Assembly: GCA_012295275.1 (NCBI GenBank)
Contig: CM022667.1
Span: 17,670,001 to 17,734,000, forward strand
Direction of reading: 5' to 3'
Length of the DNA: 64,000 bases
Source: Chrysomallon squamiferum
Lineage: Eukaryota > Animalia > Mollusca
This document shows positions 14,277 to 45,746 of the stretch, one piece after another. Below the pieces are notes generated by a model, which was not told where the DNA came from, did not search any database, and saw only the letters and a program-made list of their open reading frames with translations. A program made the translations under genes and the position numbers. The number at the start of each line of letters is the position of its first letter. Positions within the stretch are counted from its first letter, which is position 1.

Positions 14277-14318
<42 letters not shown>

Positions 14319-17261: not shown

Positions 17262-17436
17262 CTGAAATAGAAAAAGTGAAAATGTTAAGTACTAATGAAG
17301 GCCACCTACAATTTTAACATAAAAAAAAAAAGAAAAAATCAAAAAGAAAAAAAAGATCAAGGATTTTTCTGATCGATATTATCGTTGTTGCTGTAAGGTT
17401 ATGTTTAACAGTGGTGGTGGTGATGGTCATGGCAAT

Positions 17437-18130
17437 GGTTGTAGTGGTATGGTAATAATAACAGTGGTTGTAGTGGTATGGTAATAATAACAGTGGTTGT
17501 AGTGGTATGTTAATAATAACAGTGGTAGTAGTGGTATGGTAATAATAACAGTGGTAGCAGTGGTATGGTAATAACAACAGTGGTTGTAGTGGTATGGTAA
17601 TAATAACAGTGGTTGTACTGGTATGGTAATAACAGTGGTAGTAGTGGTATGGTAATAACAGTGGTAGTAGTGGTATGGTAATAATAACAGTGGTTGTAGT
17701 GGTATGGTAATAATAACAGTGGTTGTAGTGGTATGGTAATAATAATAGTGGTTGTAGTGGTATGGTAATAATAACAGTGGTTGTAGTGGTATGGTAATAA
17801 TAATAGTGGTAGTAGTGGTATGGTAATAATGGCAGTGGTTGTAGTGGTATGGTAATAATAACAGTGGTAGTAGTGGTATGGTAATAATAACAGTGGTTGT
17901 AGTGGTATGGTAATAATAACAGTGGTTGTAGTGGTATGGTAATAATAACAGTGGTAGTAGTGGTATGGTAATAATAACAGTGGTTGTAGTGGTATGGTAA
18001 TAATAACAGTGGTTGTAGTGGTATGGTAATTATAACAGTGGTTGTAGTGGTATGGTAATAACAGTGGTAGCAGTGGTATGGTAATAATAACAGTGGTTGT
18101 AGTGGTATGGTAATAATAATAGTGGTAGCA
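17437..18130. repeat. 29-bp minisatellite, about 24 copies
   Basis: Unit AATAATAACAGTGGTTGTAGTGGTATGGT with occasional 26-bp variants. Confidence 0.95.
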
Positions 18131-18372
18131 GTATCTGTTATTATTAATAAAAGGTGAAACATCAAATGATATTTAAATAATTATTTCAACTATAAAGGTT
18201 TTATATGATATCACTGCATTCAGTTTGTTATAAAATTTCATCTAATGACAAAAGTAAAACCTATTTGTCAGTCACGTACATCCTGATCCAGTGTGATGGG
18301 GTAAAACAGTAACATCATTATTTTAATGTTATAATGTTAAAATTCCCACCACTGCATCAGCTGACGACTGTT

Positions 18373-18405
<33 letters not shown>

Positions 18406-18407
18406 GT

Positions 18408-18467
<60 letters not shown>

Positions 18468-19182
18468 AGTGCATGCACATGAACATGTGTTTATAGACAA
18501 AGAAACAGACAGATAGATAAAGAAAGAAAGAAAGAATCCTGAATTAAAAATAGTAACAGACCAAAGACAGATTTTTGTAAATTGACCACTGTATATTGTT
18601 ACTATACTATGATAAATGTACAGTATGACAAGTATACTGTACAAAAAACCCACTAAAACATGTCTCATATTATAACTTTATCACATGATATTCTGAATAA
18701 ATTCTGTAACTATATCAATCTGTTAAAATAGCAGATGAAATAAGAGCAAATGTATGTTTGTTTTTATATACTGACTCTTCAGAATATTGGTAAATGTAGT
18801 ATACAGTTTGTGTCTTATCATACAGACATACATTCACAGATAACATGTAAACTATTTCTAATGAAAACATTACAGTATTAACGAATTTTAATAATATTTT
18901 AGTTTTAATTTGTAAAGAATTTCTATGTAGTTTATTTTAAATATATTTTTAAAGGAGGAATTTATTTATTATTTAGCTAACTTTACTGACTGATGTAAAT
19001 CAGCTGTATATAAAGGGTCTTATTATACTATCAAACAAATGGTTTAACCATATGAATTACATTTTGGGGCATCTGTATACATGGCATTCTTTGTATGTTT
19101 TTATATCTGTTGAATAATTATATAATTATATAATTTTTATTTTTTGAAGTAAAAATTACAGCAATTACAGCAACTATGAAAG

Positions 19183-19184
<2 letters not shown>

Positions 19185-19257
<73 letters not shown>
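19185..19257. repeat. (GA)n microsatellite
   Basis: Directly visible. Others at ~56064, 59256-59317 and (CT)n 62022-62092. Confidence 0.95.
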
Positions 19258-19260
<3 letters not shown>

Positions 19261-19696
19261 CTTAAGTTATAATGCTTGTTTTTATATTTTATTTATGTAA
19301 CATTATTTATATTTAAATAAAAACAGTGTGGGAGTACAGATGTATTTACAATCTAAGTAATGTTTTTGACATTGTACTGCAGAGTTACAGTAATCAAGAG
19401 ATCAAATACCATACAAGTTGTCGAGTTATTCTGAGAATAATCAGTGTCTGGGAACATTTCACTGAGAAACAGATTTAAGAAGAAACACTAACCTAGTAAA
19501 TAAAACACTTTGTGAGATTTCTGTCACCATACTTTTGTTAACCCGTGTGTCAGCAAAAGGGTTAATATAATTAAGAAGGTACAGATTTCTATAAGTATGG
19601 AATAAAAAACTAAAACTAAAACCCCCAAATTTCACATAGTTTTGAATTAATAATTAAATTATAGTTAGTGTATTCTTTTTTTAAAATTCAGGCTCT

Positions 19697-19739
<43 letters not shown>

Positions 19740-21506
19740 CATGCTCAATCCAAATAAGATGAATAGCCGCCATCTGTAATGATGGTAAGAATCTGCAAAG
19801 ATTGATCAATAAACTTACACTGTGTCGCAGACAGTAAGGAAATGTGTTAAAGACTGATGAAAAAAGAACTAATTAACAAAAGGAAATTGTATTCACAAAG
19901 TGAAAGCTGTCTGCTTATATGTGATGTGCACAAAGGAAGGAAATGTTTGAACTGTTTGTTAATTTAGTCAGCTGAGGTAACAATTAATATAAATCTAATC
20001 TGCAACTTAAGAAACAGTGTAATTGTTTTGGTGGTTGTTTTTGTTTTGATTTTTTGATTTTGGTTTTGTTGTTTGTATTTTTTTGGTGTTTTTTTTCTTT
20101 TGTTTTTTGTTTGTTTTTAAAGGTTAGAAAAAAAAATGTCTAGGCAGTTTAAAAATGTTGACGACAAAAGTAATAAAAAATAATGACATAAAAAAGTTGA
20201 TAATAATAACAACAAAAAAAAAAAAAATTGAAAAAAGGTGATGAGGTTAAGAAAAAGGGAAAGAAAAAATACAAAACAATAATGTTTTTTATTATTTTAT
20301 TTTATGTGTCTATGTCTAATTAAAAACATAAAAATTTAAATAAAAGCTGTTGTATTAGTATTTTTTCCTTCTTTTTCAAGTATAATAGCAAAAATGAACT
20401 GAGAAGCATCATCAGCTTTTAAAAATATAAAATTAACAATATTAAATTTAAAAAAAAAATAATAATAAATAATACAAATTTATAGAAAGACAAACAAATA
20501 ACAATTATAATTACTTGGGGGAAAAAAATAAAGATATAAAATTTAAACAAAAATATGAAAGAAGGAATGAAATAAACCTATTAATATATATATAGAAACA
20601 AGAAAATTAAAAAAGTTCACACCATCATTCTGTTAATATAAGTGAATCTCCTATAAAGTTTCAAAACATTTTGTTAAAACATTTACATTTGATTCTCATT
20701 TAGATGACTTACAAAAATCAGTTTTCCACTTAACCAAAACCTTAAAAGCCAGGCTGAGCTAAAAATCCATAGTAAATAATCCATGCTAGACCAAGTCACT
20801 TAGCAAAGTGTCACCAACATACAACAATATGGTCAAGTGCTTGATTCCAGCTATAACAGAGAGAAATATTGTAAGAAACCATCAGCAACTTTAACCTAAA
20901 TAAAAATTATATTGGTAAAGAGGTTGCTAGCTTTGAGACTTAAATCACTTACAACAGCAACAAAAAATAAATGTTTCAAAAAAGAAATTAAAATTATGGT
21001 TTATTTACTTTGTCTACATGATGTCTGTTAGAACTGTCTATAATACACGTAAATTAGAAAATCTGGGTCATAAACAAAGTAAATTCTAGATAATATCTGA
21101 CATATATCCAGTCAGTCAGAATGTAGTCCACCATAAGTAGAAGACCATCTGAATATATTCATTTGTTTATTTTGTATGTTAAAGTTGTTTTAAGTACAAC
21201 ATACAAAGATTAATAAGTTGAGATCATAACCTTTCACTAATTAATAGGAAAGGATTTATTTTATTCAGATAAACATGAACTCTTCCTGTACATAATATGC
21301 AATTATTTGTTACCAGATACAATGTTTTTCAAAAATACAAAAGATAACAATCTAACAGGTGGGTTTGAAGAAGCATGAGTATCTATTTAAAAAGCATTTT
21401 CTTGAAAATAATGACTGTTTCACATCTCTTACATAAAATAATAATTTTTTACGTTTTTATTTTTTTTTATTTCAGGTTCTAATAGGAGAATCAAAAATAT
21501 AAAGCA

Positions 21507-22625
21507 ATGGTGGAATACATAACAAATATATCAAACTTTGAGAATCAAAATGAATCCGGATATCTACAGATGAACAGCAGTTTTCAGACAGATGGCAGCA
21601 CCATCAGAACTTTCAATTTTTATATACTTGGAATTCTGGGAAATACACTAGCAGCTTTTGGATTAGTTGCTAACACCTTGTCCATTATTGTACTAAGACA
21701 TCGGCGCATGCAGTCATCAACATCACTTTATCTCATTACTTTGGCCATATATGACAACATCATCCTCATTACAATGATAATATTTTTTGGTCTGCCTAAT
21801 CTTTATCCTGAAACACCATTCTTAGAAGACTACTACTTCAACTACAATCATGCTGTGCCATTTGGTTATCCTATCGGCCTTGCTGCTCAAATGGGATCCA
21901 TCTATACATGTGTTGCCTTCACTGTAGAGAGATACATTGCTGTTTGTAAACCATTACATGCTGCTAATATGTGCACCAAATCACGAGCCAAGAAAGCCAT
22001 GATGTTAATATTTCTCTGGGTTGTCATCTACAATGTACCTCGCTATTTCCACTACCATATCCAGATACATCCAGTTGAGGGCAAGAACAAGACGCAAGCC
22101 ATTCCCAACACAACAGAGTTTGGTGATCATAAAGTCTTCAAACAGGTTTACCTTATTTATCTTCAGCTCTTCTTCATGTTTGTCATCCCCTTCTGCATCC
22201 TTCTCATCCTCAACACTGCCTTAATTCGAGCCCTCAACCGATCTCGTTTCATGCGTCAACAGATATCAACATCAGCACAGCGGGAGCACAATTTGACTGT
22301 CATGCTCATTGCTGTCATAGTTGTTTTTCTTGTCTGTCAGTTTCCATCAATAATTGACAACATTCTACTGGCATCAGTGGAGTCACATTACCTTAGAATA
22401 AACAATCACTATTCTCGGTTCTATACAATGTGTACACTGATGGTTGAAGTGAATTCTGCAGTTAACTTTGTAATGTACTGTGTGTTTGGAAAGAAGTTCA
22501 GAATGATTTTTCTGCACATATTTGGTTTTAAAAAAATTCACAAGCAGCTACAGTATAGAAGTACTTTGTATAATACAAGAACAAATGGAATTAGAACTTA
22601 TGATATGGAGGTTTCTCTTGTATAA
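21507..22625 (+). CDS. FMRFamide-receptor-like class A neuropeptide GPCR, 372 aa, intronless CDS
   Basis: Seven hydrophobic segments; FGLVAN, SSTSLYLITLAIYD, TVERYIAVCKP, YNVPRYF, FVIPF, FLVCQFP, VNSAVNFVMYC; N-terminal N-glycosylation sequons; splice acceptor (poly-T...cag|) at 21475 just upstream of the ATG. Confidence 0.93.
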   Translation: MVEYITNISNFENQNESGYLQMNSSFQTDGSTIRTFNFYILGILGNTLAAFGLVANTLSIIVLRHRRMQSSTSLYLITLAIYDNIILITMIIFFGLPNLYPETPFLEDYYFNYNHAVPFGYPIGLAAQMGSIYTCVAFTVERYIAVCKPLHAANMCTKSRAKKAMMLIFLWVVIYNVPRYFHYHIQIHPVEGKNKTQAIPNTTEFGDHKVFKQVYLIYLQLFFMFVIPFCILLILNTALIRALNRSRFMRQQISTSAQREHNLTVMLIAVIVVFLVCQFPSIIDNILLASVESHYLRINNHYSRFYTMCTLMVEVNSAVNFVMYCVFGKKFRMIFLHIFGFKKIHKQLQYRSTLYNTRTNGIRTYDMEVSLV

Positions 22626-25600
22626 AAAGAAAAAAGAAACATTATTAATATTTGTTTTTAAATCAAAGAAACATTCTGTATTTATCTGAGCAGCATGGTG
22701 ATAACATTAACTGGTTTAAGTTAATAATAATTAGATTATATTTATATTAAGTCAATTTTATTTAACAAGAAAAATTCTGGTGTTAAAATCAATAAATTTG
22801 AAATTTGAGGAAATACAAATAAACTAAAGAATATTGAAAATTATAACAAAGTAATATCAAGTTGATTAATGAAAAACAATAAGTGATTTGTTCTTAAAAA
22901 CAAAAGATAATGTAGTTGCCTAGAGAATGATTTTGAATAAACAATTTAAATTATAAAAATGTGCCTAAATGAGAATAAGAAAGCTGTGAATAAGAAACAT
23001 AAATATGTGCTGTTTGTGCCTGGTAAAGATTTGAGTTCATTTTCCCTTGACAGACTTATAGTGTTCTTTGTTGTTATTGTTCTTTAATATTGTTGTTTTC
23101 TTAAATGCAGTAAAAATAAATACTTTAAATATGAAAAATAATTAAACACTGCATAACTGACAATAAAAACATATTTATAAAATATATATATATATATATA
23201 TTTTTTGATATCTACACGGCTGAAATTTTAACTTTGGTCTTGTATAAGGTGTGCATAGTTTTTAGAATGCTTTCATATAAGAAACTACTTGTGCATGCCA
23301 AAGACAGATGAAAAACTTATGTTAGACATACGCACACCCATTTGCCTTCAGAACTGTAACTAACCAAGAAGTAAATAATTATTTTCATCCTTATTATGTT
23401 TTAAATTCACTTATAAATATTTTTTCTTTTCATTTCAAGCTGTGAATTTTAAATGTAAAATGGGAATAAAATTTACATGTTGTTAATACAAATTTGAAAT
23501 ATGTTGTTCTTTGACACAATTTTTTTTTTGCCTCATATGACGATCAATATTTTGATAAGTTGCAGTATTATATCATCATCAATTTCATGTTTTCCACTTT
23601 CCATCATTTTACATGAGTGACTAAATAAGTAAGACTGAACAACTAGTTCACTTATACAGAGGAAATGAAAATGTTTGGATAATGGAAAGATAAAGTTCTA
23701 CTCCATATTGTCATTAGACATGCGTGTATGTATCATGTAAACTGATTATTTCACTGTCTGGATATGACTCATGTTCATTTTATTTTATTATTATTGTTTT
23801 TTGTTTTGCTTTTTTATGTTGTTGGTTTTTTTTGTTCTTCTTTTGTTATTATTATTATTATTTGTTGTTGTTTTCTGATTTTTTCCTTCTTTCTATATAG
23901 TTTTTAAACTTGTTTAGCTTGTTTTAATGTGTTGTCTGCAGTAGTAGGTATATTATGAGAAGTATCAAATGTCAATAAATGTGCATGTGAGTGTTTGTGT
24001 ATGTGTTTGTTAAAATGTTATTTATTTATCCTATTCATGTATTCAGTGATTATGTATTGTTTGTATGGTGTCCTTTTTTTCTTCTCTTTTCTTCTTCATA
24101 ATCTGACTGATTTTCAGACTCACAGTCAATGAATAAAATCATATTGTAACTATATTTTCAAAACAATCAGAGGAACCTGAAATATTAACTATTAGACCAC
24201 ACATGTTTTAATCACAGCAAGTAATGAATGTTTAGTTATGTTTATCAGTATATTGAAACACTTTCCATAGGTGCACTTCAATCATGCAGTACATACATAT
24301 AACCATTTCACATGGCTGATATACTTTACTATTTCTGTAAACTCTTATTTGACTTCCCCTACTTTTTGAAGACTATATTTCAAGCAAAACAACTCATTTC
24401 ATTGAAATTTCTATGTATGTTAATGATATTAATGGAAAAAGAAAAAAGCAGCTAGTTAAAGAATGAATTATAACTGGATACTTAGGAGTTTATTTCTTCT
24501 TTTTTTTTCTTCTTTTTACTTAAGAAAGTATTGATTTCAAAATAAAATAAAAAACTAATAAATTATTTAATTAATTTTCTTTTAATACAGTAATATTAAG
24601 TTAATTATAATGAACAAACATCAACACAAATAATCTACTTTGAAAGAACTTAATACATATATCTTCTAATGGCATTTATTATAACAATTATGGAATAATG
24701 GCATGAAAGGAAAATAGTGTAATTATATTCTGGGTCATAGCAACATCTCCTTTTTAAAATTAGTACCAGAAAGGTGCCTGGTGGGACCCTTTCTTGTCTA
24801 TGTCATTATTTTGTATGTTGATACTGGGATCTGAAATAAGGGGTCATGTAAAATGTTAACTGAATTAATGTAATCAATGTTCATACATATGAAATAAAGT
24901 ATATTCATCATGAGTTATCTTCAATTAATTAAGATGTTTATAAAATACTGAGTAAATGCCACCAATGTTATTATAAATATGAAAGTATGAACTTACAAAA
25001 ATTGTTTTTTTGACATGATTAAGGCACAGACGTAAAATTCTTACCAACTTTCAAACAGTATTGTATAGGTTCAGATATTTATGTACAGGACCAGCATGAT
25101 GAAAATGATGGCATTATTTGGAATGTATAGAACTGAGATGTCTGAGATATGGCAATACGAACAACAACTTTCTGAAAATGTATTCTAACTGTAGGTTTTA
25201 TTTTTGTCTTAAAACTGAGACAGCCCTGTTCAATAATACAACTGGGTGTGATTAGGTCCAATGATCAAATTAACAAATGTAGCAGGACATCTACATCTTG
25301 TTTATAGAACTAGAAAGAAGTGTTCTGCTATGAACTGTTATATTCATCATGAAATGCTCCATCTCTAAATACAGTTCACTTCATCTTAGTAACAAAGTTA
25401 TAAGAAAAGAAACTTTTAAATGAACTCCCGTACTTCTTTTTATTTAGTTTCGGTCTTATTTTAATTAATAAAGAAGTATAAGAATAAAAAATACATTTAA
25501 AATTATTTAGGCAGTCCAATGACATCATTGTGAACAGATCAGATTAATTTAATCTGGTTTCTTCTAGTGTGAGCAGAAAAATATGGATGCCAATGAACCT

Positions 25601-27397
25601 GTATGTGATCAGACCAAATCTAAATGGCATAATGTGATAAAATGGTGACAGCACTCATATGTTTTTTAAAACTATTATTCTGTTGTCATACTTTGTTATC
25701 AATGTTTACTGGCCACAAAAAAGTCAAATAAAATATTAATTTAAATATAAACAATTATATTTTTTACACAATTCATTTATACCACCACTACTTCTTCTCC
25801 ATCAAATGCTAGATAATTCCAGTGTACACAGAACTGTCTAAGTTTATTTAAGAGAAAGCTGGAGATTTGAAGTGAAAAAAGCTAAAGATTTTATTTATTG
25901 AACAAATATGGAGATTTTCTTGCATTCATTGTAATAAAATGCAAAAACTGTTGAATGGTTAATCTTGCTCTATCTGTGGATTGCAGTGTCTATTTTTATA
26001 AGAATGCAGATCATGTAACACACTGGTCCAGTCTTTGTTTTCTTACTACCATTTATTGTTCTGCAGATCATTTTGTAAGTAATTCTACATTAACCTGACT
26101 GCTGTAAAACTGAATTTTTTTTCTCTCATTTCTTATTATTTTTTTAATTTTTAATTTTTTTTTAATTTTTTAATTTTTTTTGTTAAAGGTAAATTTGGAA
26201 GATTTTTTGGTTATTATTTTTTAAATAATTTTTTTAAATTAAAATGTTTCAGTTATTTATTGTTTTATCAAAAGGTTGTAAAAAATCATCTTTTACTTGT
26301 AAACTGAGAAGTTTGACAACACTGTGTACTAGAAATATCAAACCAAAGCTTTAAAAAAAAAAACAGTTGAAAGCTGGTATAGGAAATAATTCATTAGTAC
26401 TAAAAAAGATTGATTCTAAACACCATTAAAACCAAAACATAAAATATACAACTAAAAAAATTAGATGATTAAGTATTTATTTTAGTCTTTGGTATTAATT
26501 AATCTATTAGTTAGGTATAGCAATTCATTTTACTGGAAAAATTACTATAAAATGTTAATGGAGTATTTCCAGTTGACATATTAATGATACTATTTCATGA
26601 CGTGTCACATGGTTATACCTATATGATGCTACCTAACAGAAACAAGAATTATTCTGTTGATATCGTTCTTCATATGCTATTACACAAAATCCAACAATTA
26701 ATATATAAAAAAAATATATACTGTTTTACATTTATTCTTTCAATGTAAATCTTGTTACAGATTTGTAAATAAATCATGTCTGAAGTTTTTAATTTGGTAT
26801 CAAGTTGAAAATCCAATAAAAATCATATCAAATTTAGTCTAATTAAAAGTGGCAGATGTAATCTAGAATATAAAGTAACAAAATCCTTAGAGAGTCCAAT
26901 GTAATAAACCTGTCAGATAATGTTATGTTAAATTTTCAAACTGTAAATGCTTAGATGTACTTGCAATACAATTTGTTATCAAACAGTGTTTTACAAATAT
27001 CATTTATTTATTTTTATTTAATTATTTATTCAATTATTTATTTATTTATTAATTATAATTTTGTTTTTTGATCCTGATATATAAATAGTAGTTGCAAAAC
27101 AACATAAAATATATAAATCCACAAAATAAAAAAACAATAAAAAAAACAAAAACAAAAACTGAAACAATGAAAATACAAAAAAAAATTAAGAAAATAAATC
27201 AGAACTATAATAATAATAATACTAATAAATGTATTAAAATACCTGGACAAAAATTTCAATGATTTTATTTTTATGTAAAAAGCTTGCTACTGGTGGTAGT
27301 TATTCTGTTGTTTGTTGGCTGTGGATATGGCAAAGTGTTTTAAATTTTTCCTTGAGATCACAAAGAATGGATATACCATAATTTATTTCAATTTTAT

Positions 27398-27570
27398 TTA
27401 TTATTATAGGTTGTTTGTACCATCAGAAAGTGTAAAATACATCATTAAAATGGCATGACTAGTTTAGGCAGAAATATTATTATTATTATAGGTTGTTTGT
27501 ACCATCAGAAAGTGTAAAATACATCATTAAAATGGCATGACTAGTTTAGGCAGAAATATTATTATTATTA
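27398..27570. repeat. Perfect 82-bp tandem duplication
   Basis: taggttgtttgtaccatcagaaagtg...gcagaaatattattattatta occurs twice (27407, 27489), bounded by (TTA)n microhomology. Confidence 0.95.
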
Positions 27571-28335
27571 GATGTAAAGAAAATTTAAGTTTAATACAAG
27601 GTAGCATTACAAATTGTTATTAAAGACTAAGCTGCTATGAGTTTGTATGTGATAACTCTCTTTTCCTGTTCTTTAGTTCAACTAGAAGCAACAAAATAGA
27701 AGTCTATGTAGCAGATCAGTCTGTAGTGATGTTTTGTTTCAAGACATTAATTTGTTTTGTTTTGTTTTGGTGGTAAAAAAGAAATTTCAAAAGTATGAAA
27801 AAGAAAAGAAATAATAATAATATAAAATAGATAAAATAAATAAAATAAAATATAAATAAAAATCTTAACATTACACACACATACTTAACTGATTAGCAAC
27901 ATTTTGTTTTAACTTTTCTTGTTTTTATATGAAAAAAGAGATGAAATAATAAATAAAAAAAATTATAAAATATATTGAAGTATCATTTACAAGTATTCAT
28001 TTTTTTAATTTAATGAATATATAATAGAAAAAAGTGATAATAAAGCAAAGTAAATCTGTTGTATTATTATTATTATTATAATTTCTTTTTTTTTGAAAAA
28101 TGAGGTAGCCAGTAAAAAAAAAAAAAAAAAAAAAAAAAAATAAAAAATGAAAGGTTAAATGTAGCCTTAACATATTATCATTTGCTTAGTATTTTATTAC
28201 CAGTTTATTATCAGCAAACATCAACTGTTACAACAACAAAATAAATATAAACATAACTATTTATACAATTTAAGGCACTCACAGACTCACTCATAAACAC
28301 ACACACAAAATACACATCTTAAACCTTAATATTAT

Positions 28336-28389
<54 letters not shown>

Positions 28390-29954
28390 GATGCACAAAA
28401 TCAAGTCATAATGGGTTTTTTTAAAGTTACCATCAACCATTTTATTATCAGCTTATTTTATCACCATGTTATTATTAGCAACAATCAAACATCACCATAA
28501 ATAAAACAAATATAAATATAACTATTGATACAAGATACAGGCAGACACTACATATTTAAATTTTATAATTATGTAAACAGATAGATGTACAGATATCCCT
28601 GAAGAGAACAACATGCACATATATAAGAAAGAAAATGCTTTAAGTACAAAATACAGCAAGACAGAAACATATTTTCTGTAAAGGAATAAAAAGGTAATTC
28701 AGGTAATGTTCACCTGTAGCTGAAAGGTTAAAATTACTGGTTATTAACTGCCACCCAGTAACTGAATATTGTTATCTTGATAATGTAAAAATAAAAAGGA
28801 AAGATGTCATTTCAATAAAGGAATGGGTTAATTCCTTTTGATAAACACATTTACTTAATTATTTACTTAACTGAACTGACAAACAAAAAAGATGAAAAGA
28901 GTCAATAAATGAATGTTTAATGACACCACAGCACAAAAAACATGTTGGCTACTTTTGTGTGTCAGAAGAGGAACCATGCAGTGACAGACAACAAACACTC
29001 CGAGAAACAAATTACATAAAAAGAGAGACAACACATGAAAATAAACACTTGAAAGGAAATTACATTTTAAATATATTAGAATATCCCAAAGCCATTGTAA
29101 GTCTCAGAAGAAAAAAACAAAAAAGAAAGTAGATAAATAATAAAGAAAATTAAAAAAGAAGAAGACAAAAGCATAATAAATTACGGAATTAATTTTCATT
29201 TAATAAAGTTCATAATAATGCACAAAATTAATAAAAATCTACTTTTAAATAATTTAATAAATACTGTAAAAGATGAAATTAATGCATGCATAAAATAATG
29301 CACCTTCACAACACGCAAGAAATGTATGTACTAATTAATGGGACAAACATAATATATTCTTTTCTTCCTTTGTTTCCCAATTGCATAATATTCACACTGT
29401 TCAGTCTGTGGTTTACATGTTACAACTGTGAGTCAGGTTTCAGTAGATGTTGTGTAATAAAATGTTTTGATATTGCTCTTATTGATAATTAGCTGTTATT
29501 CCAATGTCAGCTTATCCATAACAATTAAATGGGTTACAGTTATTCAGAGGAAAGTTGAGTTAACTGTCTACTTACACTTTAACTCAATGAATTACCAACA
29601 TATTCAAACTGAAAATATGTATATAAAAAAAATACTAATAACCAAGTAAGCCAAACAAAAAATAATAATAAAAATAAAAAAGAGATATCAAAATAATGTG
29701 TTGATGCCATTAACACTTTTTTTTACATTAATTTCATATTTGATCTTCTCATGGCCTTTGATATGTTAGTTTGGGAATAATAGTTGGAACTAATGTAGAA
29801 GCAGGAAGATAACAGGTAATTCCAAGCACAAAATATACAACAAAAAAAAGAAAGAAGAATAAAAATGATCTCTATTGGTTCGGTATAGTTTAGTCTTTGG
29901 TATTAATTAATTATTAACTAGACTGTAACATTCATTTCACTGGCAAAGAGAAAT

Positions 29955-30359: not shown

Positions 30360-30421
<62 letters not shown>

Positions 30422-31299: not shown

Positions 31300-31331
<32 letters not shown>

Positions 31332-32234: not shown

Positions 32235-32286
<52 letters not shown>

Positions 32287-32857: not shown

Positions 32858-32940
32858 TAGTAAGACTTCAATAACTTGAGATTGAAGGGGTCAACAAAAA
32901 CAGCTTGAGTTTCAGGGTGCTTGAGTATTTGAATTTTTGA
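32858..32940. mobile_element. Decayed Tigger/pogo-like terminal remnant
   Basis: agtaagacttcaataacttgagattgaagggg...cttgagt...cttgagt resembles pogo-type termini after CpG decay; no partner TIR found. Confidence 0.35.
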
Positions 32941-35716
32941 CAGACAAGTAATGGACATTTAATATTTCAAAAAACACACTTTTTCTTATTTAATAAACTA
33001 AGTAAAGCACAAAATAAATAAAAGACACAGCAAATTTAATTTGACATAATGCACACACACACACACAAAATTATGTTTCCTATATATGAAAATGTATTTA
33101 TTGAGATATAAAACAGCATAAACAGATGACATGTACTCATATGTTCATTATCAAAAACATAAACTGAAACTCATATCTGGAAATAAATATCAAGTTCATG
33201 TATTTTCAAATTTCTAAACTTGGCTGAATGAAATCAATCAATACAGATGTTTTAGTGGCACTTGATAATATTCCATACATGACAAAAGTATTTTAAATTG
33301 CAAACAGTCTACAAAAAGAAAAAACTATGACTAAATTATTGATACATCTATTTATAAATATTATTTCTGCCATAAAAAAAAGTTAGTAATAAAAGACTGT
33401 TTGCATGGTTTTTTTGAAAAAATCATCTTTCATTACAGCAGCCATAATTCCACACAATCTCTTTAATATTTCCTGAGAATATCAATAAAAGAATTGTTGT
33501 TAGTGTTTAACACTGTTATGGTAAACATGTTATTAATTGCAAACATCATTTTGGCCATAAAAAGACAACATAACAATAATTTACTTACAACTGTTTTTAA
33601 TAAAACAAAATCAATTTCTGTTTCCTATTTTTTTATTACATGTTAACATGTTTTTAAAGTGCAATTTAAGTAAAATGTTTTTTTCATGAATATCAATCAG
33701 TGAAGGGGTGAATAAAAGTGTTGCTATCAGTGATCCAAATGAACAGTCCCAAAAAATCCAGTGTATTATCCTATATATATATATAAAACATATATGGATG
33801 TATATAAAATCAGAGGTAGAGAAAAATATTTATGCTAGTCAGTAATGCCATATCATTCACATTTATCACTTCCTAAAAATGTTGGGTTATAATTTCATCC
33901 CCAATTGTCCTCCTTATAAATAAAAAAATTAAATAAATAGAATAATCTTTGTTTTGCCCTCATGGATATTAATTATACATTTGTTAATAATAATAAATCA
34001 TATTTAGCATGTATAATTTTGATGTTGTTTATAAAAATACAGTAATCTTGTCAGAGATCGATTCATACAATTGTCTTAATGTACAAAACAAGAACCCCAA
34101 AAACAGTTCAACTAGTACTATAATAAAAACTGTTTAATAGCTGATTTTTATTCTGATGACAAGTAGGACTAGTGTTAATCTTATTGATGATTATTCCATG
34201 GCTATATCAGCTTTTGCAGGCTTGAAGTCATAATACTACCAAATACCTGACAGTGTTCATTTATCTCTGTTAAACAGCTGGATCATGTACAAGACACCTT
34301 GTTTCCAGTTGAAGCTGATTAAAAAAACTAACTGCTATTGAAAAATGTAGTATTTTATTTGCATTTTTACAGCAAATTAAAAACTGTTTCAAATAAAAAA
34401 ATATAAGATCAACAAATATCGATTTTTCAGTAATAATTTTTATCCCAAAGATCAAAAACACGTCTTCAACTGGCAAAAAAAAGGAATTTAATCCATACCT
34501 GAAATGTGTATGTGAGTGTGTGTGTTTATACAGATGTGATTAAAAATAGCAGCAGTGATTAAGTATTCCATCTCTCATCTTTCTAAATATCAAGTGTCAG
34601 ATATTATTTACATACGGTAATGTGTTACTTTTGCCTGCATTTTCTTTCTGTCTTACTCAAAATAATTTTGAGCCTGTAAATTCATTTATAAATATCAAAC
34701 AAACAGAATTCGTGCCAGACTTGAGGAAGCTAATAAAGTGAGAACCTAATTAATTATATTAACCCATCCGAATGAAAACCCTCTTCATGAAATGGCAATA
34801 ATTATGCAGCACTTAGCAAGTATGTAAGTTATTCTTGCTCCCGGTATGGAACACAAGTGGTCAAAGCAGACAAAAGCCATTTGGTAACAGACGAGTGTAG
34901 GCCAGAGAACTAATGAAGTAATTTCAGCATCTTTGTGCTCATGTTAAGAGACCTCTACAAACATGACAGATTTGACTTGGGGCTGATGAGGAATACAAAA
35001 ACTAATGCTGATGTCGATGTTAGATAGAAAATACTGCCAAAGAAAAGCATAGAAAATATAAAGAAATAAAAAAATGTTTTAATTTTGTTTGAAGTATCTA
35101 CTAATTAGTTATAATAGGAAAGGTTAATATATATACATTATATATAAATGCAGATATGTAATTAAAATATAGGTCCAATTCACAGACTGATGAGAAGAGT
35201 TTGATTTTTGTAACAGTTGGTAAAGAATAATAATTTAGAAAATAAAAGTTTACTGATGGTTCAAAGATTCAAAATGAAGTACTTCCAGTGAAATTACAAG
35301 CAATATTATGCAAAGGATTTTATTTCTTGTTAATGGCTTGACTGTGTATTTTAGGTACTTGAGGAAATTCAAAAGTTAATTGAAATCAATATAATATTAA
35401 TGTGTCAGATACAAACTACAATGCTAAATTATTAAAAATAAACTATGGAATCCTTTTTTCCTTGTTGTCAGTAAATAAATTCTTCTGTATTACATTATTT
35501 ATATGTGTTACAGTGAGCTCTGAATTCAGAATTAGTTTAATATCAGATCGGTAAATAACATAAAGCAATCTTTCAATATTATACAGTATAAAGTATTTCT
35601 TTTCTATTAAATATATCTGAAAATATTTTATTTTATTTTATATATTTTATTATTATTTATTTATTTTTATTTGTTTATTATTTGTTTATATATATATATA
35701 TATATATATATGTGTA

Positions 35717-35769
<53 letters not shown>

Positions 35770-36508
35770 GTATATGTATATAATCTTCTTTTTTTCCATC
35801 CACCAGATACAAAGCAACAAAATTATTATCTGAAAGTGATTATTTCACTAATGGATACAAACCGAAGAATCTTTAAAACAAAGAAAATAGAAACATGAAC
35901 TGACATCTATCTTCTACAGTGGATTATATGTACAGCAGCCTGGATTTGCTGGATTACTGGATTACAACTTTACTAAAGCTATATGGATTTTTGTGGTTTC
36001 TAGTTGATTACCAAGATATTAAAAGTGTATGGGTTTTGGTGATCTACAGTGGATTACACAGAAATCATTACAGCTGTTTTGGATATTTGGATAAAAGCGC
36101 AAAAATTAAAATACAGTAACTAAAATAACAATTTACTCTGTAAAAATACTGCAATGCTGGGAATATACAAGAAGTCCAAAACTATTATCCTTACATAATA
36201 AAGAACTAATTGAATTGTCATTTGTTACCTTGTAACTAATATTAATCTAATATATCTAAACATTTATAAGTAATATTACTTGTAGAATTAACAGCTTCAT
36301 AACAAACTAACTGAATATACAGTCTCAACAAAAACAAACTAATTTATACCAACAAATATTTATAACTGACATTATTTTCTTAAAAAATCAAAAACATATT
36401 TAATACCTCAATTAAAAATGTTATGTTTAAAATGCTAACTTGCCTAAGTTTCATTTCATTAAAATTTTGAATGTATATAATCAAGCCAAATAAAAGAAAA
36501 AGGTAAAC

Positions 36509-37558
36509 ATGCTTTCAGAAAATACTGTATACAACATGTCTCAACTGAACACAAGTTATGACAACCTGAATTACATCATGGAAATCTGGTATTATGTTCA
36601 TGGGATATGTGGTACAAGCATTGCTCTCTTTGGACTTTTTGGAAACAGCATTGCCATATTTGTACTTTCAGGAAAACGGATGCGGTCATCAACAACTCTT
36701 TTCCTTATTGTCTTGGCAATCTTTGACAATGTTCTCTTGCTTTTTGTTATTCTGCTACAAACACTGCCAATAATCTGTCAACATGATGACATTCTTATTG
36801 AATATATATTTGTGAGGGAAACAGCCTATATTGTGCTCTATCCAATTGTACACATTTGTCACACAGGTACCATTTATACCACTATTGCTGTTACTGGTGA
36901 ACGATGTATTGCTATAGTCAAGCCACTGGGTGCTCGATCTATATGCACTAGATCTCGTGCAGGAAAGATTCTTATTGGAATTACTTTGTGGTCAATTTTT
37001 TACAATATTCCAAGGTGTCTGGAAAATGGTTTAGAAGAAGTATGGGATCCATTATTCAACAACACGATATATATCACAAATGTTTCAACATTTGGAAGTT
37101 CGTGGTTATATAATTTTGTTTACCTTGTCTGTATAAATTGCTGTTTTCATTTCCTTATGCCATTTTTGGCACTGTCACTAATGAATTATTTCATTCTAAA
37201 AACACTGTGGCAGAGGAAACAAGGCATTCTTCAACAACAGAGAGCAGTTTCTTTAGAAAATGATTATCGTTTAACAGCAGTTGTTCTAGCAATAACAACA
37301 GTATTTTTTATTTGTCAGTTATTCGGTGCCACCCAGCTGGTAATACTACAGGCTGTGGGGATACATTCAGTGAGAATAGGCAAATGTACTCCATCCTGTG
37401 AAATCTTCAATGCCATAGCAGAAACTGTGGTCATAGTAAATTCTGCCATCAATTTCATTCTGTTTTGTGCATTTGGAAACAAATTTAGACAGATGTTTCT
37501 GCGATGTATTTGTGCACCTAAGGAAAGAAGCTTCATTGGAATGAACCCAAGGGACTGA
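36509..37558 (+). CDS. Divergent FMRFamide-receptor-like class A GPCR paralog, 349 aa, intronless CDS
   Basis: 7TM; FGLFGN, LAIFD, TGERCIAIVKP, YNIPRC, FLMPF, FFICQLF, VNSAINFILFC; collinear with the 21507 receptor. Confidence 0.92.
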   Translation: MLSENTVYNMSQLNTSYDNLNYIMEIWYYVHGICGTSIALFGLFGNSIAIFVLSGKRMRSSTTLFLIVLAIFDNVLLLFVILLQTLPIICQHDDILIEYIFVRETAYIVLYPIVHICHTGTIYTTIAVTGERCIAIVKPLGARSICTRSRAGKILIGITLWSIFYNIPRCLENGLEEVWDPLFNNTIYITNVSTFGSSWLYNFVYLVCINCCFHFLMPFLALSLMNYFILKTLWQRKQGILQQQRAVSLENDYRLTAVVLAITTVFFICQLFGATQLVILQAVGIHSVRIGKCTPSCEIFNAIAETVVIVNSAINFILFCAFGNKFRQMFLRCICAPKERSFIGMNPRD

Positions 37559-38844
37559 AATAGAGTCAGTCCAGTCAATTTTGATTTATCAGCTATACTA
37601 TAATTAATTATAAATATTTAATTAAGTATTTAAATAAATACACTTGTTACCAAATTACATTTCCCTATTAATGATCAGTGATAAATTTCCATGATTCAAA
37701 ACATTTGATAAACACAGAAATGAATTATGATGTGGTGGAATTATTTTTAAATGTGATAAACTGAGTTATAAAGATAAAAAACGTATGTTGGAAGATTTTA
37801 TTTATTTATTAGTCAGAAGAAAAAAGCAGATAATATTCTGTAGAAAGAAGAAAATTTCATATTTTGTGTAAATTTCAAGGACTTCTGACAATAGTATTCC
37901 ATGTCATAGTTGTCTTTATGAAATGCTGTATGATGAAACAAAGGATCAGAAAGACAAATGGATTTAACAGATAAATTATTTACATATTAACACTGAATGT
38001 GTAATATTTAGATTTATTAAAAAAAGAAGAATATTAAACATTGTTATAAATCTGGTTATTGTTTTGAAACTCAATTAGAAATTTTAAAATTTACTTCTAT
38101 TTAATCAGCTTTCTTTCTATGCACTTCTGTAATTACTGAACAGTTTGAAAAATCAGTGTCATGTGCTGACTGATATCAGTTTACAGTGTACTTTGACAAC
38201 AGTCTGATGTGTTTTGTTTACTTATTTTTATTGTTATTATTATTTTAAATTAAGAATCTTAGCTAATATCAAAGTATGGCAACAGAAGAGTGTTATTATG
38301 AAACTAGAGTCTTTCATTGTAATAATAATGGATTAGTCAGTTATATAAGTTTCTAAAGAAAATGTTTCTTCAAATTATCTGTATCCCAATTTACAGTTAT
38401 CTGTATCCAAATGAAAACAAGCACTTTGTAAAAGAAATTTCAGAATGGATATATATATAAAAGTTTCATAACACCTCTCCACACACCACCAAAAATAAAT
38501 TAGAATACAAAGACAGTTTCCTCAAGTCTGTGATGTCTGTACAGTAAAGAATAGGTGAAAACAATGACTGACAAATGATTGTGAAGAGTAAATAATGAAA
38601 ACCAATGATGACGAGATATCCTGACATAACACAGAAGTTTAAGTTAAGCCTAATATTTAATTCTGGTAATTTTTTCAAAAGTGCCACAATTTGATGCCAA
38701 AAGTATTAATCTGTTTTTACCAATATAACTATATCCCAGACCTCTTCTTATGAAGACTATGTAAATAAATAGATTTCACTTTACACAGCATGTTATCGTT
38801 AAAATCTGAAGTGATGAACTTTTAAAAATTTACCAAGATTTACA

Positions 38845-41275
38845 TCTTTTGCATGAAATGTACAGGTTTGCAGAATAATTTAACAAACAATCCAACAAAA
38901 ATTAGTTTGCATAGGCAATTCAATAAACTGGTCTAAATAATTTTAGTTAATTGTTGCATTTTTAAAGACAAATCTGAACTAATTTGTAATAATAAAATAA
39001 CAGTTAGATCTAATAAAACAATCACATTCAACAGACCATCCCATTTGCTGATATTTCACATGTATGTATGTGTGAGAAATCTACTAAATAGAAACAAATA
39101 TAAACAGCGAAATAAAAACAGCGAAATGAACAAAATGTAATAAAATATGTGTATATAAAGGACTGCTTTTGAAATATTGCCAATAATGAGATAACAAAAA
39201 TAACATTAACTCATGCTGTATCTTCCATGCAAAGAAGCAGCATAGGTCATCATATGGTGTTCACAACTCAAATTAGAGATTTCCTGCAGGATGTAAAGAG
39301 TAAATTATTAACGAATATTTCTGAAGCTGGTTGTCTTTTTGTAACATTATTCCATGGTGAGTTATAGAGAAAAAAAACAAATTAATTCCAAAAATATATT
39401 AAGGTAAGAATATGTATGTTTCACTAATGATAAGGATATTAATAATATTAGCTATTTATAGCAATATTTTTACATTATTAGATAATTATTTAGTAAATTA
39501 AAAAATACTATAATTATCAAGGTATATTAATTCTGTTGCTTAATAAATCTGAATACTTTCAATGAACATGATAATTATAACAATAATAACATAATTTTAA
39601 AAAATAAAAATAAAAAATAAACATTTTCTTTGTATTGATTTTGATATTTCATTTATTATTTTTTTTTTTTTAAAGTTATGTTATTATTGTTATAATATAT
39701 ATATATATTATTTAAACTTAATTGTGCAAATAACAAGTAAATTATCAAAGTAAATACAGTTTAGTACCCCAAAACAGAAGTGTATTAATCATCATATATT
39801 ACCATTATGTAGAGTGATTACAACATATACATATATATATATGATGACTAGATACATTTCTATAATTTTATATTTTATATATGTGCGTGCGCACCCATGT
39901 ATGTGTGTTTGAATGCATGTTTCTGTTTCTTCTTTTTACAGAAAATCATGCTTTTTGCATCTATTCTTCTAATTAAACAAGATTACTAATAAATGCTGGT
40001 AAACCATGAATGGAAGCATGAAAATAAACATTACAAATAATTGAAGGATCTATGTAACAAAACTAAGAAAGACAAAAACAGTAAGACAAGGGGAAAAAAA
40101 AAAGAAACATACAAACAAACAACACAAATACATAAAAATGATGTTTGAATCAACTTTCAAAAATGTTCCAATTAATAGCATTCATTTAACATTTTTAACG
40201 CCAACAAGTAATTCATCAAAAATCTGGTAAGACAGGAGAGGAAAGAAAGTTAATCTTGCTTTCAGAAAACATGGTCTGTAACATATCCCAGATGAATGCA
40301 AGCCAAGATTATAAACATAACAAGAGATATGAAATGTTGTGCAATATTTATTTCCCTATCCTTTTTACTTTTAAAAAGTTATAAGACCTTTTTTCCTGAA
40401 CTGTACGGAATAATTTAACAAACAATACAACAATAATGTATTTGCCTATGGTGGCAGTTCCTTCTTTCAACTAATTTCATCTAATATTATGACAATAAAA
40501 TAACCGTTACATCTAACAACTCATTAACATTTAACAGATTGTGCCATTTCCCTTGTTTCATATGCATATATATGAATATACTGTGTACACATCCTGTTAA
40601 ACAGAAACAAAAACAAGAAAAATTCCATGCAAACAACAAAAAACCCCACATTAAATAAGATGTGTTTATATAGTCCTTTTTCTGAAATATTTCCAAGAAT
40701 AATGGATAAAAATAACCTAGTCATGCTGTTCTGGTCCATGTAATTAGATGGAAAGAAGCAGCACTTTTCGTCATGTGGTGTTCAGAACTGAAACTGGATC
40801 TTTCATGCAGGAAGTACTGAGTAAATCATTAATGAATATTTCTACTGCTGTTTATTCTTTTAAAACATTATTCTAAGGTGAGTTTTAAAGAAAGAAAAAA
40901 GTAATAATAATAAAATAATAATAATAATAATTATTATTATTATGTTATCCTTCAAAAAAAAAAAATTAAAAGAGAAATTATTAATGCAAGCAGGTGCAAT
41001 ATTCTTCTTAATATTAATATTCATTGCAATAATTACAAAATGTTTGGTATTATATTATATTAACCCTTACTATGAAAAAAAATATAAAGATCAACACTAT
41101 AATAATAGTAATAATATAATTAAAAAATAAACAACTACATTGAATATTGTTTTCCTTTTTATTTTAAATTTTAGAATTTTGTTCTTTGTCAAATAGTTTT
41201 GTTTGAAGACCTAACCACATTTATTTTATTTATCTACTTCTTTCTTATTTGAATCAACTTTCAAAAATGTTCTAA
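38845..41275. repeat. Diverged local segmental duplication (copies ~38845-40170 and ~40395-41275)
   Basis: Shared blocks gaataatttaacaaacaat, aaagaagcagca, gagtaaat.attaa.gaatattt, aacattattc...GGTGAGTT, and an identical 25-mer tttgaatcaactttcaaaaatgttc (40144, 41248). Confidence 0.8.
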
Positions 41276-41378
41276 TTTATAATTTATGAATTATTTTAAT
41301 CTGTTATTATTGCAGTTATTTTGATTTGAAGAATGTAAATACATCAGACAAACAATCAACTCATTTTTATATGTATGT

Positions 41379-41435
<57 letters not shown>

Positions 41436-41689
41436 CAAATAACTTTTTAAAATATATATGACCCAAAAAGCTATATTTATGGTCAGTGTCTCAAAATAGA
41501 AATGTATCAACTCACCACATCTTACATACACTGATTGTAACACAGCTATAGATGTTTTCTTTTTCTTTTTTTTTAAGAAATATACTGAACAATTTATGCA
41601 ACTGAGTAAGTACAGAAAAACAAAAAAACTGAACATTCCCCCCTCCCTGAAAAAAGAAAAAGAAAAATTAAAAAAGGAAAGAAAAGAAG

Positions 41690-42611
41690 TATATAAATGC
41701 AAGCCAATATTATGAAGATAGCACTACAGAGGAAAAATTCATATTAAATTACATTTTCTTAATTTGTGGAATAACAATTGCCCTCTTTGGGCTTGTTGGA
41801 AACATCACTGCCATATTTGTGCTTTGTGGGAAACAGATGAATCCTGCATGAGTCTTCTTATTGTTCTAGAAATATTTGATAGTGGATTATTACTTTCTTT
41901 TTTGATAATTGAATACGTGCAAATATATTATTATGTAAATTTTTTTAAGCCCAATATTCTCAAGTCCAGCAAACAAATATTCCTAATTCCTGTTGCTGTT
42001 ACCAGTGAATGATACATTGCAGTTGTCAAACCTTTTCTTGTACATTCTTTATTTACAAAGTCTAACAGTGTAAAAATTATTGCTGGAATTACTTTATGGT
42101 CAATTTTTTACAATATTCCAAGATATATGGAATTCAGATTAGAAGAATCTTGGATTCCTGAAAATAATTTTACAATATATCAAGTTGCTGCAACAGCATT
42201 TGAAGATTCTCAGTTTTATACTCTTTACTACCTTGTTTGCATAAATAGTATATTTCATGATTTTTTTTTACCACTTTCATTACTCTTCCTAATGAGTTAC
42301 TCAATCATGAAAACTTTATGGCAAAGGAAACAAGACATTCTTGACACAGAGCAGTTCCTTCAGAAAATGACAGCAGTAGTAGCAGTGGTTTTTTATCTGT
42401 CAGTTATTTGGCATTGTTGAATTGTTTCTCCATGGGTAGCTGAAGAATGGATATTGTGTATGTACCCTATTCTGTAAAACTGTCTGTCTTTGAAATAAGT
42501 AGCTTAATAATCATGACAAATTCAGCTAGTAACTTTATAATGTTCTGTTTATTCAGAAAAAGATTCAGAAAAAACTTCATGGATTGTATTTGTAGGAAAT
42601 GCAGACATTAA
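41690..42611 (+). pseudogene. Pseudogene of the 36509 GPCR
   Basis: Fragments in shifting frames: ICGITIALFGLVGNITAIFVLCGKQM; VAVTSE*YIAVVKP (TGA at 42010-42012); GITLWSIFYNIPRY; KTLWQRKQ; FFICQLFG; TNSASNFIMFCLFRKRFR. It has stops, frameshifts, a deletion in the TM2-TM3 region and no start codon. Confidence 0.9.
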
Positions 42612-44623
42612 CTTAAACAATGTATTTTTTAATATTTATATGCTCAGATTGAGTTCCAGAAGAATGCAGAAGGAATATTTGAAAAGTACAGGTTTGGAGT
42701 AGATTCAGTTAGCAGTTAAGAGAAAATAAGTTAATGATGAAACTAACAATGGTTGATTACTACTTCATTAGTTAATAAAAACTATATATATTATATATAT
42801 TTCATTTTTCATTTAGCATCCTTGTAAATGTTGTACTTTGTAAGATTTTGTAAATAAGTGTGTTTTCCTCTGCACAGAATTTTGTATATTAACGTGACAT
42901 GAAGTTATTTTCAAATATATAATGGCATCATCCTCAATATTAGATGCAAAATAGTGTTTACTGTAGAAGAATGGAAAGGAAGTTTAGTAAAACCCATTAA
43001 TCATAAAAAGGTTTGAAAACATGATGAATTATTTCCCTTGTGAGTTTCCAGATTCTTGTGAGCACAGCCCACCAGTGTTTCAACAAGTTATGAATTATTT
43101 GGAAAATGGAAATGGAAAATGAATATCTTATATCACTGTGAATTAGCAGAGTCTATGGTTCAGTTTAGGTAAGGTGGTTACAAAACAAGTATTTGTTATG
43201 ATTCATCTTAATTTGTTGCCATTGCTGATCACAGAGTACTTCTAGTGTGAGCCTGCTTTGATCACTTGTATATGCAGTGTTTCATCAGAGGCCTTCTTTA
43301 AAGACTCCAAGACTTGGTAATGCAAATTGCAAATTAATGTGAATAATAATTAGATGCAAAAAACCAGTGATTAGAAATGTTGGTCATAAAGGCAATTATT
43401 TCAAATATTACTTATTTATTTTTTTGTCAAACATATACAATGTAATATTTAATACTCAAAATTGGCACATTTATCTGCCACACATTTAGATACAGAATTG
43501 ATATGTCAATTTAACCAGAGGTCTCACTACATATTATAAGAGATGGCAGGCCCGTTTATTTAATGAACTTTGTTTTCTATAATATATTAAAAAGACACTT
43601 TGATTTTATTTAATTGCAACAACAATAAACTTGTTAATAGTTAATGCATGTGATGCATTTATTTACAGGAATATATATGACAAACAACTAATTTGAACAT
43701 TGTTCAAAGTTCTTGTACCCTGAACATTTTCTGTACTATCCCTTTGTTTAACTTGCAACAGTTATGCCGATTTCTGCCATCCCTTTCACAAATGCTGGAC
43801 AGACCACTGTTTTAACATTTCATTTTATCATTATCTAACTTCACCTTTTGCTCTGAAACTCACTATATATCATTTTAAGCAAAATGTCAGTTTACTTATG
43901 GTATATTTGTAAATTAACATTATATTGTAAAAATATTTAATGGTGAGACAATAAACAGTGGAAAAATCCTCAACCATTTTATTGTTTATTTTTAATTGAT
44001 CTAAAACACCAATAAAATATAAAATTACAGAGTTTTAGTAATGAAATTTTCTTAATTATAATTAATTAGGTCAGACAGAATTGACAGACAAGAATACATT
44101 TGAAAGAAATTTAATTCTATTATTGAGCTCAATTTGTGCATGACCTATTGTTGCTAATACTAAAATGAGTTTTCTTTAACTTATTTAAGTAAATTACATA
44201 TCCATTATTCAATTATTATTTTTGTAACATTTACTTAATATAGGACAAGAATGTTAAATACCATGATGTTCTGTAATAAAAGAAATAATAATAACTGATC
44301 ATTTTCTGATTTCATTTTAAAACAATTTTTGGATTGGGTCATTTGATACCATGCAGTACTGATTGTTCTGTCAACTCAAAGTTATTTCTTACAAACACCT
44401 CAAGGAAAAATGTTAATATTTTCAAACAGAGCTAAATTTAGTTGAGTTCCCTTTAATGATCTCCGTCAGGTCATACTGTTAAACAGAAGTAAATGTAGTG
44501 TATGAGATGAGCTGATGTATGTACTGGCAGATGATATACATGGCTTACATACAGGGATGACATACATGGTCAAAAACATTTTTTGAACTACAATATCTAG
44601 TATAACAGAAAGGAAAAGCTTAC

Positions 44624-45743: not shown

Positions 45744-45746
<3 letters not shown>

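What the first reader, a model, noticed from the sequence alone, without database searches (positions are those of the whole stretch)
17262..44623. Birth-and-death cluster of neuropeptide-type GPCRs nested antisense inside one 27-kb intron of LRRCC1
Seen: LRRCC1-like exon 8 ends in phase 2 at 44624, and the convincing phase-2 continuation I found is the 124-nt exon at 17261-17138. The other LRRCC1 introns are 0.16-2.1 kb; this one is 27,362 nt. It holds, all on the opposite strand, a canonical FMRFamide-receptor-like gene, a strongly diverged paralog and a pseudogene of that paralog. Known: LRRCC1 is a centriole/ciliogenesis protein with a long C-terminal coiled coil, and this GPCR family (FMRFaR/srw-like) expands by tandem duplication in invertebrates. 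Inference: the host intron works as a nursery for receptor duplicates, with three evolutionary stages side by side and possible transcriptional interference between host and receptors.
Basis: partly seen in the sequence, partly recalled or inferred. Interest (0 to 1): 0.8.

Follow-up and report, generated by a model that had tools for sequence, protein, structure and literature searches.

The report
Ancient receptor nest inside cilia gene
In this snail a 27-kb intron of the cilia gene LRRCC1 holds two intact neuropeptide-type receptor genes and two dead copies on the opposite strand, and the main receptor has likely sat there since before molluscs and annelids split, so this is an old conserved nesting with some local duplication rather than a fresh gene nursery.

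Summary
The nesting is real. RNA contigs join LRRCC1 exon 8 (44624) to exon 9 (17261). The 'nursery' reading is only partly right. A is a conserved receptor: its orthologue lies within 7 accession numbers of LRRCC1 in 13 of 18 species checked (gastropods, bivalves and the annelid Paralvinella). Seven of 14 truncated LRRCC1 models break at this same intron. B is old too, since abalones have it beside A and LRRCC1. Only the two B copies are younger and dead. The next intron is also over 17 kb, so intron 8 is not a lone giant. Best reading: an orphan spiralian receptor related to insect FMRFamide receptors was trapped in LRRCC1 intron 8 early, and tandem duplication inside the intron is tolerated. 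Nesting in other species is inferred, not read from their DNA. Ligand, expression of A and B, and transcriptional interference are untested. This is a new member of a known kind (TIMP-in-synapsin-like conserved nesting), and I did not find it in the library searched.

The parts
49948..50231 (-). LRRCC1 coding exon 1 (ATG at 50231; LRRs)
   Evidence: 86% identical to G. aegis LRRCC1
45221..49654 (-). LRRCC1 coding exons 2-7 (49654-49437, 49215-49108, 48946-48903, 48456-48307, 47545-47459, 45314-45221), introns 161-2,144 nt
   Evidence: exon 7-8 joint in 3 of 3 RNA runs laid
44624..44777 (-). LRRCC1 coding exon 8, ends in phase 2 at a GTAAG donor
17262..44623 (-). LRRCC1 intron 8, 27,362 nt, host of the receptor genes
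   Evidence: RNA contig loose ends in X1 and X4 join 44624 to 17261
17138..17261 (-). LRRCC1 coding exon 9 (124 nt, ends phase 0 at ...ESTYV)
   Evidence: aligns to G. aegis aa 374-410
1..17137 (-). Start of LRRCC1 intron 9, over 17.1 kb; exon 10 lies outside the window
   Evidence: no tblastn or HMM match to later exons
21476..22625 (+). Receptor A: intronless CDS 21507-22625 (372 aa), preceded by a strong splice acceptor (AG ends 21475), so a 5' UTR exon likely lies upstream
   Evidence: 87% identical to G. aegis XP_041375168
36509..37558 (+). Receptor B: intronless intact paralogue (349 aa), predicted 7TM fold
   Evidence: pLDDT 80.8; 83% identical to G. aegis XP_041375169, 62% to Haliotis
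40100..40934 (+). Relic B copy: upstream region and first codons of B without the ATG, then B's non-coding 3' flank; coding body missing
41672..42600 (+). Pseudogene of B: nonsense codon at 42010-42012, at least 3 frame changes, indels that differ between runs

Best explanation
LRRCC1 intron 8 carries two intact antisense receptor genes and two dead copies, and receptor A was likely trapped in this intron before molluscs and annelids split, with later duplicates probably arising by tandem copying inside the intron. Shown: the splice across 27 kb, the four units in one orientation, the shared non-coding flank between B and the relic (DNA-level tandem duplication), and orthologues of A and B in other species. 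Inferred: A sits inside the same intron in other species. It persists because a gene inside an essential host cannot be moved by ordinary rearrangement, and its 5' UTR exon and regulatory DNA probably lie in host introns. Duplication there only lengthens an intron, and the antisense orientation avoids mis-splicing (Lee and Chang 2013, abstract). B split from A at the latest before abalones and vent snails parted and has been kept since; two later B copies died. A and B are predicted to be peptide receptors of the protostome RFamide/Wamide group; their ligands are unknown.
For: Junction. Accessions of LRRCC1 and the best A-type receptor lie within 7 numbers in 13 of 18 species with both accessions read: G. 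aegis 166-167|168 (B 169); H. asinina 613|616-619 (B 620); H. cracherodii 655|656; Patella caerulea 288-289|286; Batillaria 777|771; Babylonia 668-671|676; Saccostrea cucullata 364-366|367-368; Mya 378|379; three Mytilus species; Mizuhopecten 009|002; Paralvinella KAK2149746|745. These fall in 10 genera. Four more (H. rufescens, Liolophura, Argopecten, Ostrea) are far apart in accession but share a contig length. Small shared scaffolds (294 kb S. cucullata, 329 kb Paralvinella, 597 kb Mizuhopecten, 604 kb H. rubra, 886 kb Lottia) make chance unlikely. Of 14 truncated mollusc or annelid LRRCC1 models, 7 stop at the exon 8/9 boundary, and 6 of those continue with Arg at or within 2 residues of the break, as reading through a phase-2 AG|GT would give. 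The A tree follows the species tree, and B forms its own clade (100/99) inside the A-type group (99/99). Relic and pseudogene. The crude pseudogene-B comparison gives dS about 1.3 and dN about 0.35 over 198 codons.
Against: No genomic DNA of another species spanning both genes was read. The 80 metagenome loci held no LRRCC1 exon, and the A-type ones were only 1.8-8.3 kb long. Accession adjacency shows neighbourhood, not nesting. Gene models may break at exon 8/9 merely because that region is poorly conserved, and the Paralvinella break is placed only roughly. In Owenia the best A-type receptor and LRRCC1 are on different contigs, so annelid support is 1 of 2 species. The age of the A/B split is unresolved: a tree joining B with gastropod A is not rejected (AU p = 0.4). 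Batillaria has five gene models between LRRCC1-5' and A that I could not identify; they could be a larger local expansion.
Confidence: 0.75

Rival explanations
1. Neighbours, not nest, elsewhere: A and LRRCC1 are an ancient linked pair, but A lies inside intron 8 only in some lineages (for example vent snails).
For: All cross-species evidence is indirect; Owenia is unlinked; 7 of 14 truncated models break elsewhere.
Against: Break points cluster at the exon 8/9 boundary with the phase-2 Arg signature in 6 genera. In P. caerulea the 5' LRRCC1 piece ends there and A follows two locus tags away.
Confidence: 0.1
2. Functional coupling: the nesting is kept by selection because A (or B) shares regulatory DNA with LRRCC1 and is expressed in ciliated cells, where an RFamide-type peptide would tune ciliary or sensory activity. 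This can coexist with the best explanation.
For: Persistence in 10 genera, whereas nested genes are typically young duplicates (Assis 2016, passages). Both introns flanking exon 9 are long. LRRCC1 is an effector of multiciliated cell function (title and abstract start).
Against: No expression data for A or B. An RFX X-box pattern (recalled consensus) is not enriched: 10 matches against 11.0 expected, none beside the A or B start. Drosophila nested pairs are less co-expressed than neighbours (Lee and Chang, abstract). Trapping alone explains persistence.
Confidence: 0.15
3. Nursery: the intron is a hotspot of ongoing receptor birth and death, driven by transcriptional interference that favours diverging duplicates.
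For: Two dead B copies; long branches in the B clade; Assis 2016 proposes such 'hotbeds'; five unidentified genes in Batillaria.
Against: A and B are both old and conserved (87% and 83% to G. aegis; B in abalones). The pseudogene is itself far diverged (dS about 1.3) and may predate the split from G. aegis. The look-ups found one A and one B beside LRRCC1 in G. aegis and H. asinina, although my searches would miss dead copies.
Confidence: 0.12

Closest known systems
TIMP nested in a synapsin intron (Drosophila to human; Pohar et al. 1999 as cited in PMC4860685, passages seen)
   Same: A small gene kept inside one intron of a conserved host across phyla.
   Different: Here the host is a centriole/cilia gene, the guest is an orphan class A GPCR, evidence covers only molluscs and one annelid, and the guest has duplicated in place.
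[quoted passage not shown]
   Same: Opposite strand, intronless CDS, long host intron, several guests in one host.
   Different: Typical guests are young, fast-evolving duplicates; A is old and conserved.
Spiralian receptors related to type 1 (arthropod) FMRFamide receptors (Thiel et al. 2021, PMC8557429, passages and supplement searches)
   Same: Sources name A orthologues 'FMRFamide receptor-like'. My tree shows two spiralian paralogue groups, as the paper describes. A's QFPSIIDNI motif occurs in two phoronid receptors of their data set.
   Different: The paper says the ligands of this group are unknown. I did not place their sequences in my tree. B is a further, more divergent clade.
FMRFamide-receptor-like expansion of Lymnaea and other heterobranchs (Koene et al. 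2024, PMC11589774, passages)
   Same: Same broad annotation; tandem duplication is invoked.
   Different: That expansion has about 450 genes. A behaves like a small, non-expanded orthogroup; the paper has no occurrence of 'nested'.

Membership tests
LRRCC1 (host) | N-terminal LRRs with orthology to named LRRCC1 proteins | tested here: met
   64% over 438 columns to G. aegis LRRCC1
LRRCC1 (host) | Long C-terminal coiled coil | tested here: inconclusive
   Those exons are not in the window; an X4 RNA contig continues 2,238 letters beyond exon 8, but only 30 were shown
Nested gene | Guest lies wholly within a host intron that is spliced out | tested here: met
   for the coding sequences; UTR exons of A and B not mapped
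Conserved ancient nesting (TIMP/synapsin kind) | Same guest in the same host intron in distant species | tested here: inconclusive
   Linkage in 13 of 18 species by accession and shared break point; no direct genomic read
Class A (rhodopsin) GPCR | 7tm_1 above cut-off, seven helices, E/DRY-type motif | tested here: met
   A 95.8 bits, B 55.4 bits (cut-off 30.5); ERY in A, ERC in B; 7-helix model of B, pLDDT 80.8
Type 1 FMRFamide-related spiralian receptors | Falls in the clade with arthropod FMRFamide receptors in a reference tree | tested here: inconclusive
   Names and motif likeness only; no deorphanized reference sequence was in my trees
Type 1 FMRFamide-related spiralian receptors | Activation by FMRFamide | not testable with these tools
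   Thiel et al. 2021 state the lophotrochozoan ligands are unknown
Birth-and-death gene cluster | Tandem duplicates with pseudogenes | tested here: met
   Pseudogene and relic of B
Birth-and-death gene cluster | Lineage-specific turnover of the functional copies | tested here: not met
   A and B each group with orthologues of other species, not with each other

The most novel reading that the evidence does not exclude
A pan-spiralian regulatory unit, over 500 million years old, couples the basal-body gene LRRCC1 to an orphan RFamide-type receptor pair, so that ciliated cells switch on the peptide receptor that controls them together with their ciliary machinery; the locus would point to the cell type and help find the missing ligand.
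Probability: 0.15. Interest if true: 0.7.

Novelty: new member of a known kind. Interest (0 to 1): 0.4.

Why it matters
It adds an apparently unreported case to the short list of nestings kept across phyla. It gives a synteny marker that picks out one true orthologue (and its paralogue B) among the dozens to hundreds of 'FMRFamide receptor-like' genes in mollusc genomes, a group whose ligands are still unknown. It also offers a reason why LRRCC1 is split in many mollusc annotations. Nested genes and small receptor duplications are common in themselves (about 10% of Drosophila genes are in nested structures), so surprise is moderate unless co-regulation with cilia is shown.

Tried and rejected
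No whole genome is held for this window, so exon 10 and copies elsewhere in the genome could not be sought. Expression of A and B was not measured: reads were laid only on 41620-45450. Short, low-depth RNA contigs over the pseudogene (depth 2.8-6) occur equally over neighbouring intronic DNA, so they are no evidence of its transcription. A metagenome scan with an A alignment gave 80 loci, none with an LRRCC1 exon by tblastn or HMM; the contigs are too short to decide (searches failed script, 39). An alternative exon inside intron 8 was not found (best E 0.45). 46 short ORFs (45 in introns 8-9, one at 56.8 kb) had no Pfam hit above cut-off. No flank homology between A and B, or between B's 3' flank and the pseudogene's, beyond shuffles. 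X-box scan at chance level. A single-sequence fold of B failed (pLDDT 41). The AU test of pseudogene plus window B as a pair was not rejected (p 0.13), so its date relative to G. aegis is open. The dN/dS figure is crude (NG86, hand-chosen blocks, AT-rich) and is not relied on. Literature searches found no paper with LRRCC1 plus FMRFamide (0 papers), nested gene plus GPCR plus mollusc, LRRCC1 plus synteny (2 unrelated) or microsynteny terms (1 unrelated). Earlier scan findings: none. The tree file in the Thiel supplement could not be read for clade placement.

Full report
Setting. The window is AT-rich animal DNA. Its genes are closest to those of the vent snail Gigantopelta aegis: 86% for LRRCC1 exon 1, 87% for receptor A, 83% for receptor B. 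No whole genome was held.

Host gene. Nine minus-strand coding exons splice into an open 421-aa frame that aligns to G. aegis LRRCC1 aa 1-408 at 64%. Introns 1-7 are 161-2,144 nt. Exon 8 ends in phase 2 at 44624. I laid 3 of the 4 listed RNA runs plus run X5 on 41620-45450. All three RNA runs show the exon 7-8 joint. X1 and X4 show a loose end at 44624 whose 30 letters occur once in the window, at 17232-17261, the start of the proposed exon 9. The X4 contig continues 2,238 letters beyond exon 8. All RNA runs are from one study. The 27,362-nt intron is therefore real. Exon 9 ends at ...ESTYV, directly before the conserved QLM...ERERRW block of orthologues, and that block and all later sequence are absent from 1-17137 (9 orthologues, best E 0.75; HMM).

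Guests. A (21507-22625) and B (36509-37558) are intact intronless 7tm_1 ORFs on the plus strand, 35% identical. B folds as a seven-helix bundle when given an alignment (pLDDT 80.8). A has a strong acceptor 31 nt before its ATG, so an upstream UTR exon is inferred. The pseudogene at about 41700-42600 matches B better than A (42% against 30% in the main segment), has TGA at the E-R-Y arginine and at least three frame changes, and carries indels that differ among runs (one is in a contig under depth 5). A fourth unit at about 40100-40934 repeats B's start region (score 70 against shuffle maximum 50) and B's non-coding 3' flank (76% over 540 nt; 352 against 47) without the coding body. Shared flank and orientation show DNA-level tandem duplication.

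Age of A. A's homologues form a tree that follows the species tree: gastropods 100/100, bivalves 100/98, chiton, annelids (35 homologues hand-picked from the 94, plus A and B). For 18 species I read accessions of both LRRCC1 and the best A-type receptor. In 13 they lie within 7 numbers, across 10 genera of gastropods, bivalves and the annelid Paralvinella. In 4 they are far apart but share a contig length. In Owenia they are on different contigs. That accession order tracks gene position is my recalled knowledge of annotation practice, supported here by the small shared scaffolds. For position within the gene: of 14 truncated mollusc or annelid LRRCC1 models compared with a full-length relative, 7 end at the exon 8/9 boundary, and 6 of these continue with Arg at or within 2 residues of the break, as expected from reading through a phase-2 AG|GT. 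The region is poorly conserved, so this is suggestive only. A direct test failed because metagenome contigs were too short. The mollusc-annelid split being over 500 million years old is recalled knowledge.

Age of B and the dead copies. B has orthologues in G. aegis (accession next to A) and in H. asinina and H. cracherodii (62%; next to A in H. asinina). With seven unnamed proteins it forms a long-branched clade (100/99) inside the A-type group (99/99). An origin from gastropod-stem A is not rejected (AU p 0.4), so B is at least as old as the abalone-vent snail split and may be older. The pseudogene joins window B and G. aegis B (94/93) to the exclusion of abalone B; whether it predates the split from G. 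aegis is open.

What the receptors are. Sources name them FMRFamide receptor-like. Thiel et al. 2021 (PMC8557429; passages and supplement searches) describe at least two spiralian paralogue groups related to type 1 FMRFamide receptors, with unknown ligands. My tree shows two such groups, and A shares a TM6 motif with phoronid receptors in their data set, but I did not test membership in their tree. A GenBank record names the H. discus hannai A orthologue 'FMRFamide receptor' (WKU84470.1); I found no paper testing it. The nearest solved structures are distant peptide receptors (ghrelin receptor, E 5e-20).

Mechanism. Most likely (0.75) an early spiralian receptor gene became trapped antisense in LRRCC1 intron 8 and has stayed because it cannot be separated from an essential host by ordinary rearrangement. 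Tandem duplications inside the intron are tolerated; one gave the lasting paralogue B and two later B copies died. Rivals are linkage without nesting elsewhere (0.10), selection for co-expression in ciliated cells (0.15, compatible with the best reading; X-box scan at chance), and an active nursery (0.12). Interference between host and guests is untested.

Comparison and novelty. Antisense nesting is common (Lee and Chang 2013, PMC3814207, abstract and opening text; Assis 2016, PMC5174743, passages), and cross-phylum nesting is known for TIMP in synapsin (PMC4860685, passages). LRRCC1's centriole and multiciliated-cell role comes from a search listing with abstract starts only. Koene et al. 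2024 (PMC11589774, passages) describe the large FMRFamide-receptor-like expansion without nesting. Searches found no report of this arrangement. The library lacks most subscription papers, and bioRxiv supplements are closed, so a mention in a synteny table could be missed; public annotations may already show it implicitly. Verdict: real, a new member of a known kind, interest 0.4.

Noticed in passing
window 58681-61244 (+): A separate multi-exon class A GPCR gene outside LRRCC1 (7tm_1 hits in two exons); not related closely to A or B.
   Followed up: no
window 51385-51924 (+): 180-aa ORF with PPxY-like motifs about 1.1 kb upstream of the LRRCC1 ATG on the opposite strand; only a sub-threshold Pfam hit and no Atlas hit above 0.80.
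   Followed up: partly
window 17436-18126: 29-bp minisatellite, 24 copies, just upstream of the exon 9 acceptor; it causes the long spurious minus-strand ORFs.
   Followed up: partly
window 43540-43800: Short high-copy repeat in intron 8 (summed contig depth up to 4,600 in X5 against about 55 nearby).
   Followed up: no
window 50640-50760 (-): GC-richer stretch ending in a GT donor-like site, with an AG directly before the ATG at 50231; possibly a 5' UTR exon of LRRCC1.
   Followed up: no
P0128/P0137 and P0127/P0131: Babylonia and Nucella each have two A-type receptors; the Babylonia pair is on contigs of different length, suggesting a separate large-scale duplication in neogastropods.
   Followed up: no
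P0018/P0125 and P0010/P0124: Five unidentified gene models lie between LRRCC1-5' and A in Batillaria, and one in Patella caerulea; they may be B or further copies.
   Followed up: no
P0003: The Haliotis rubra LRRCC1 model breaks at the exon 9/10 boundary, hinting that intron 9 is long there too.
   Followed up: partly
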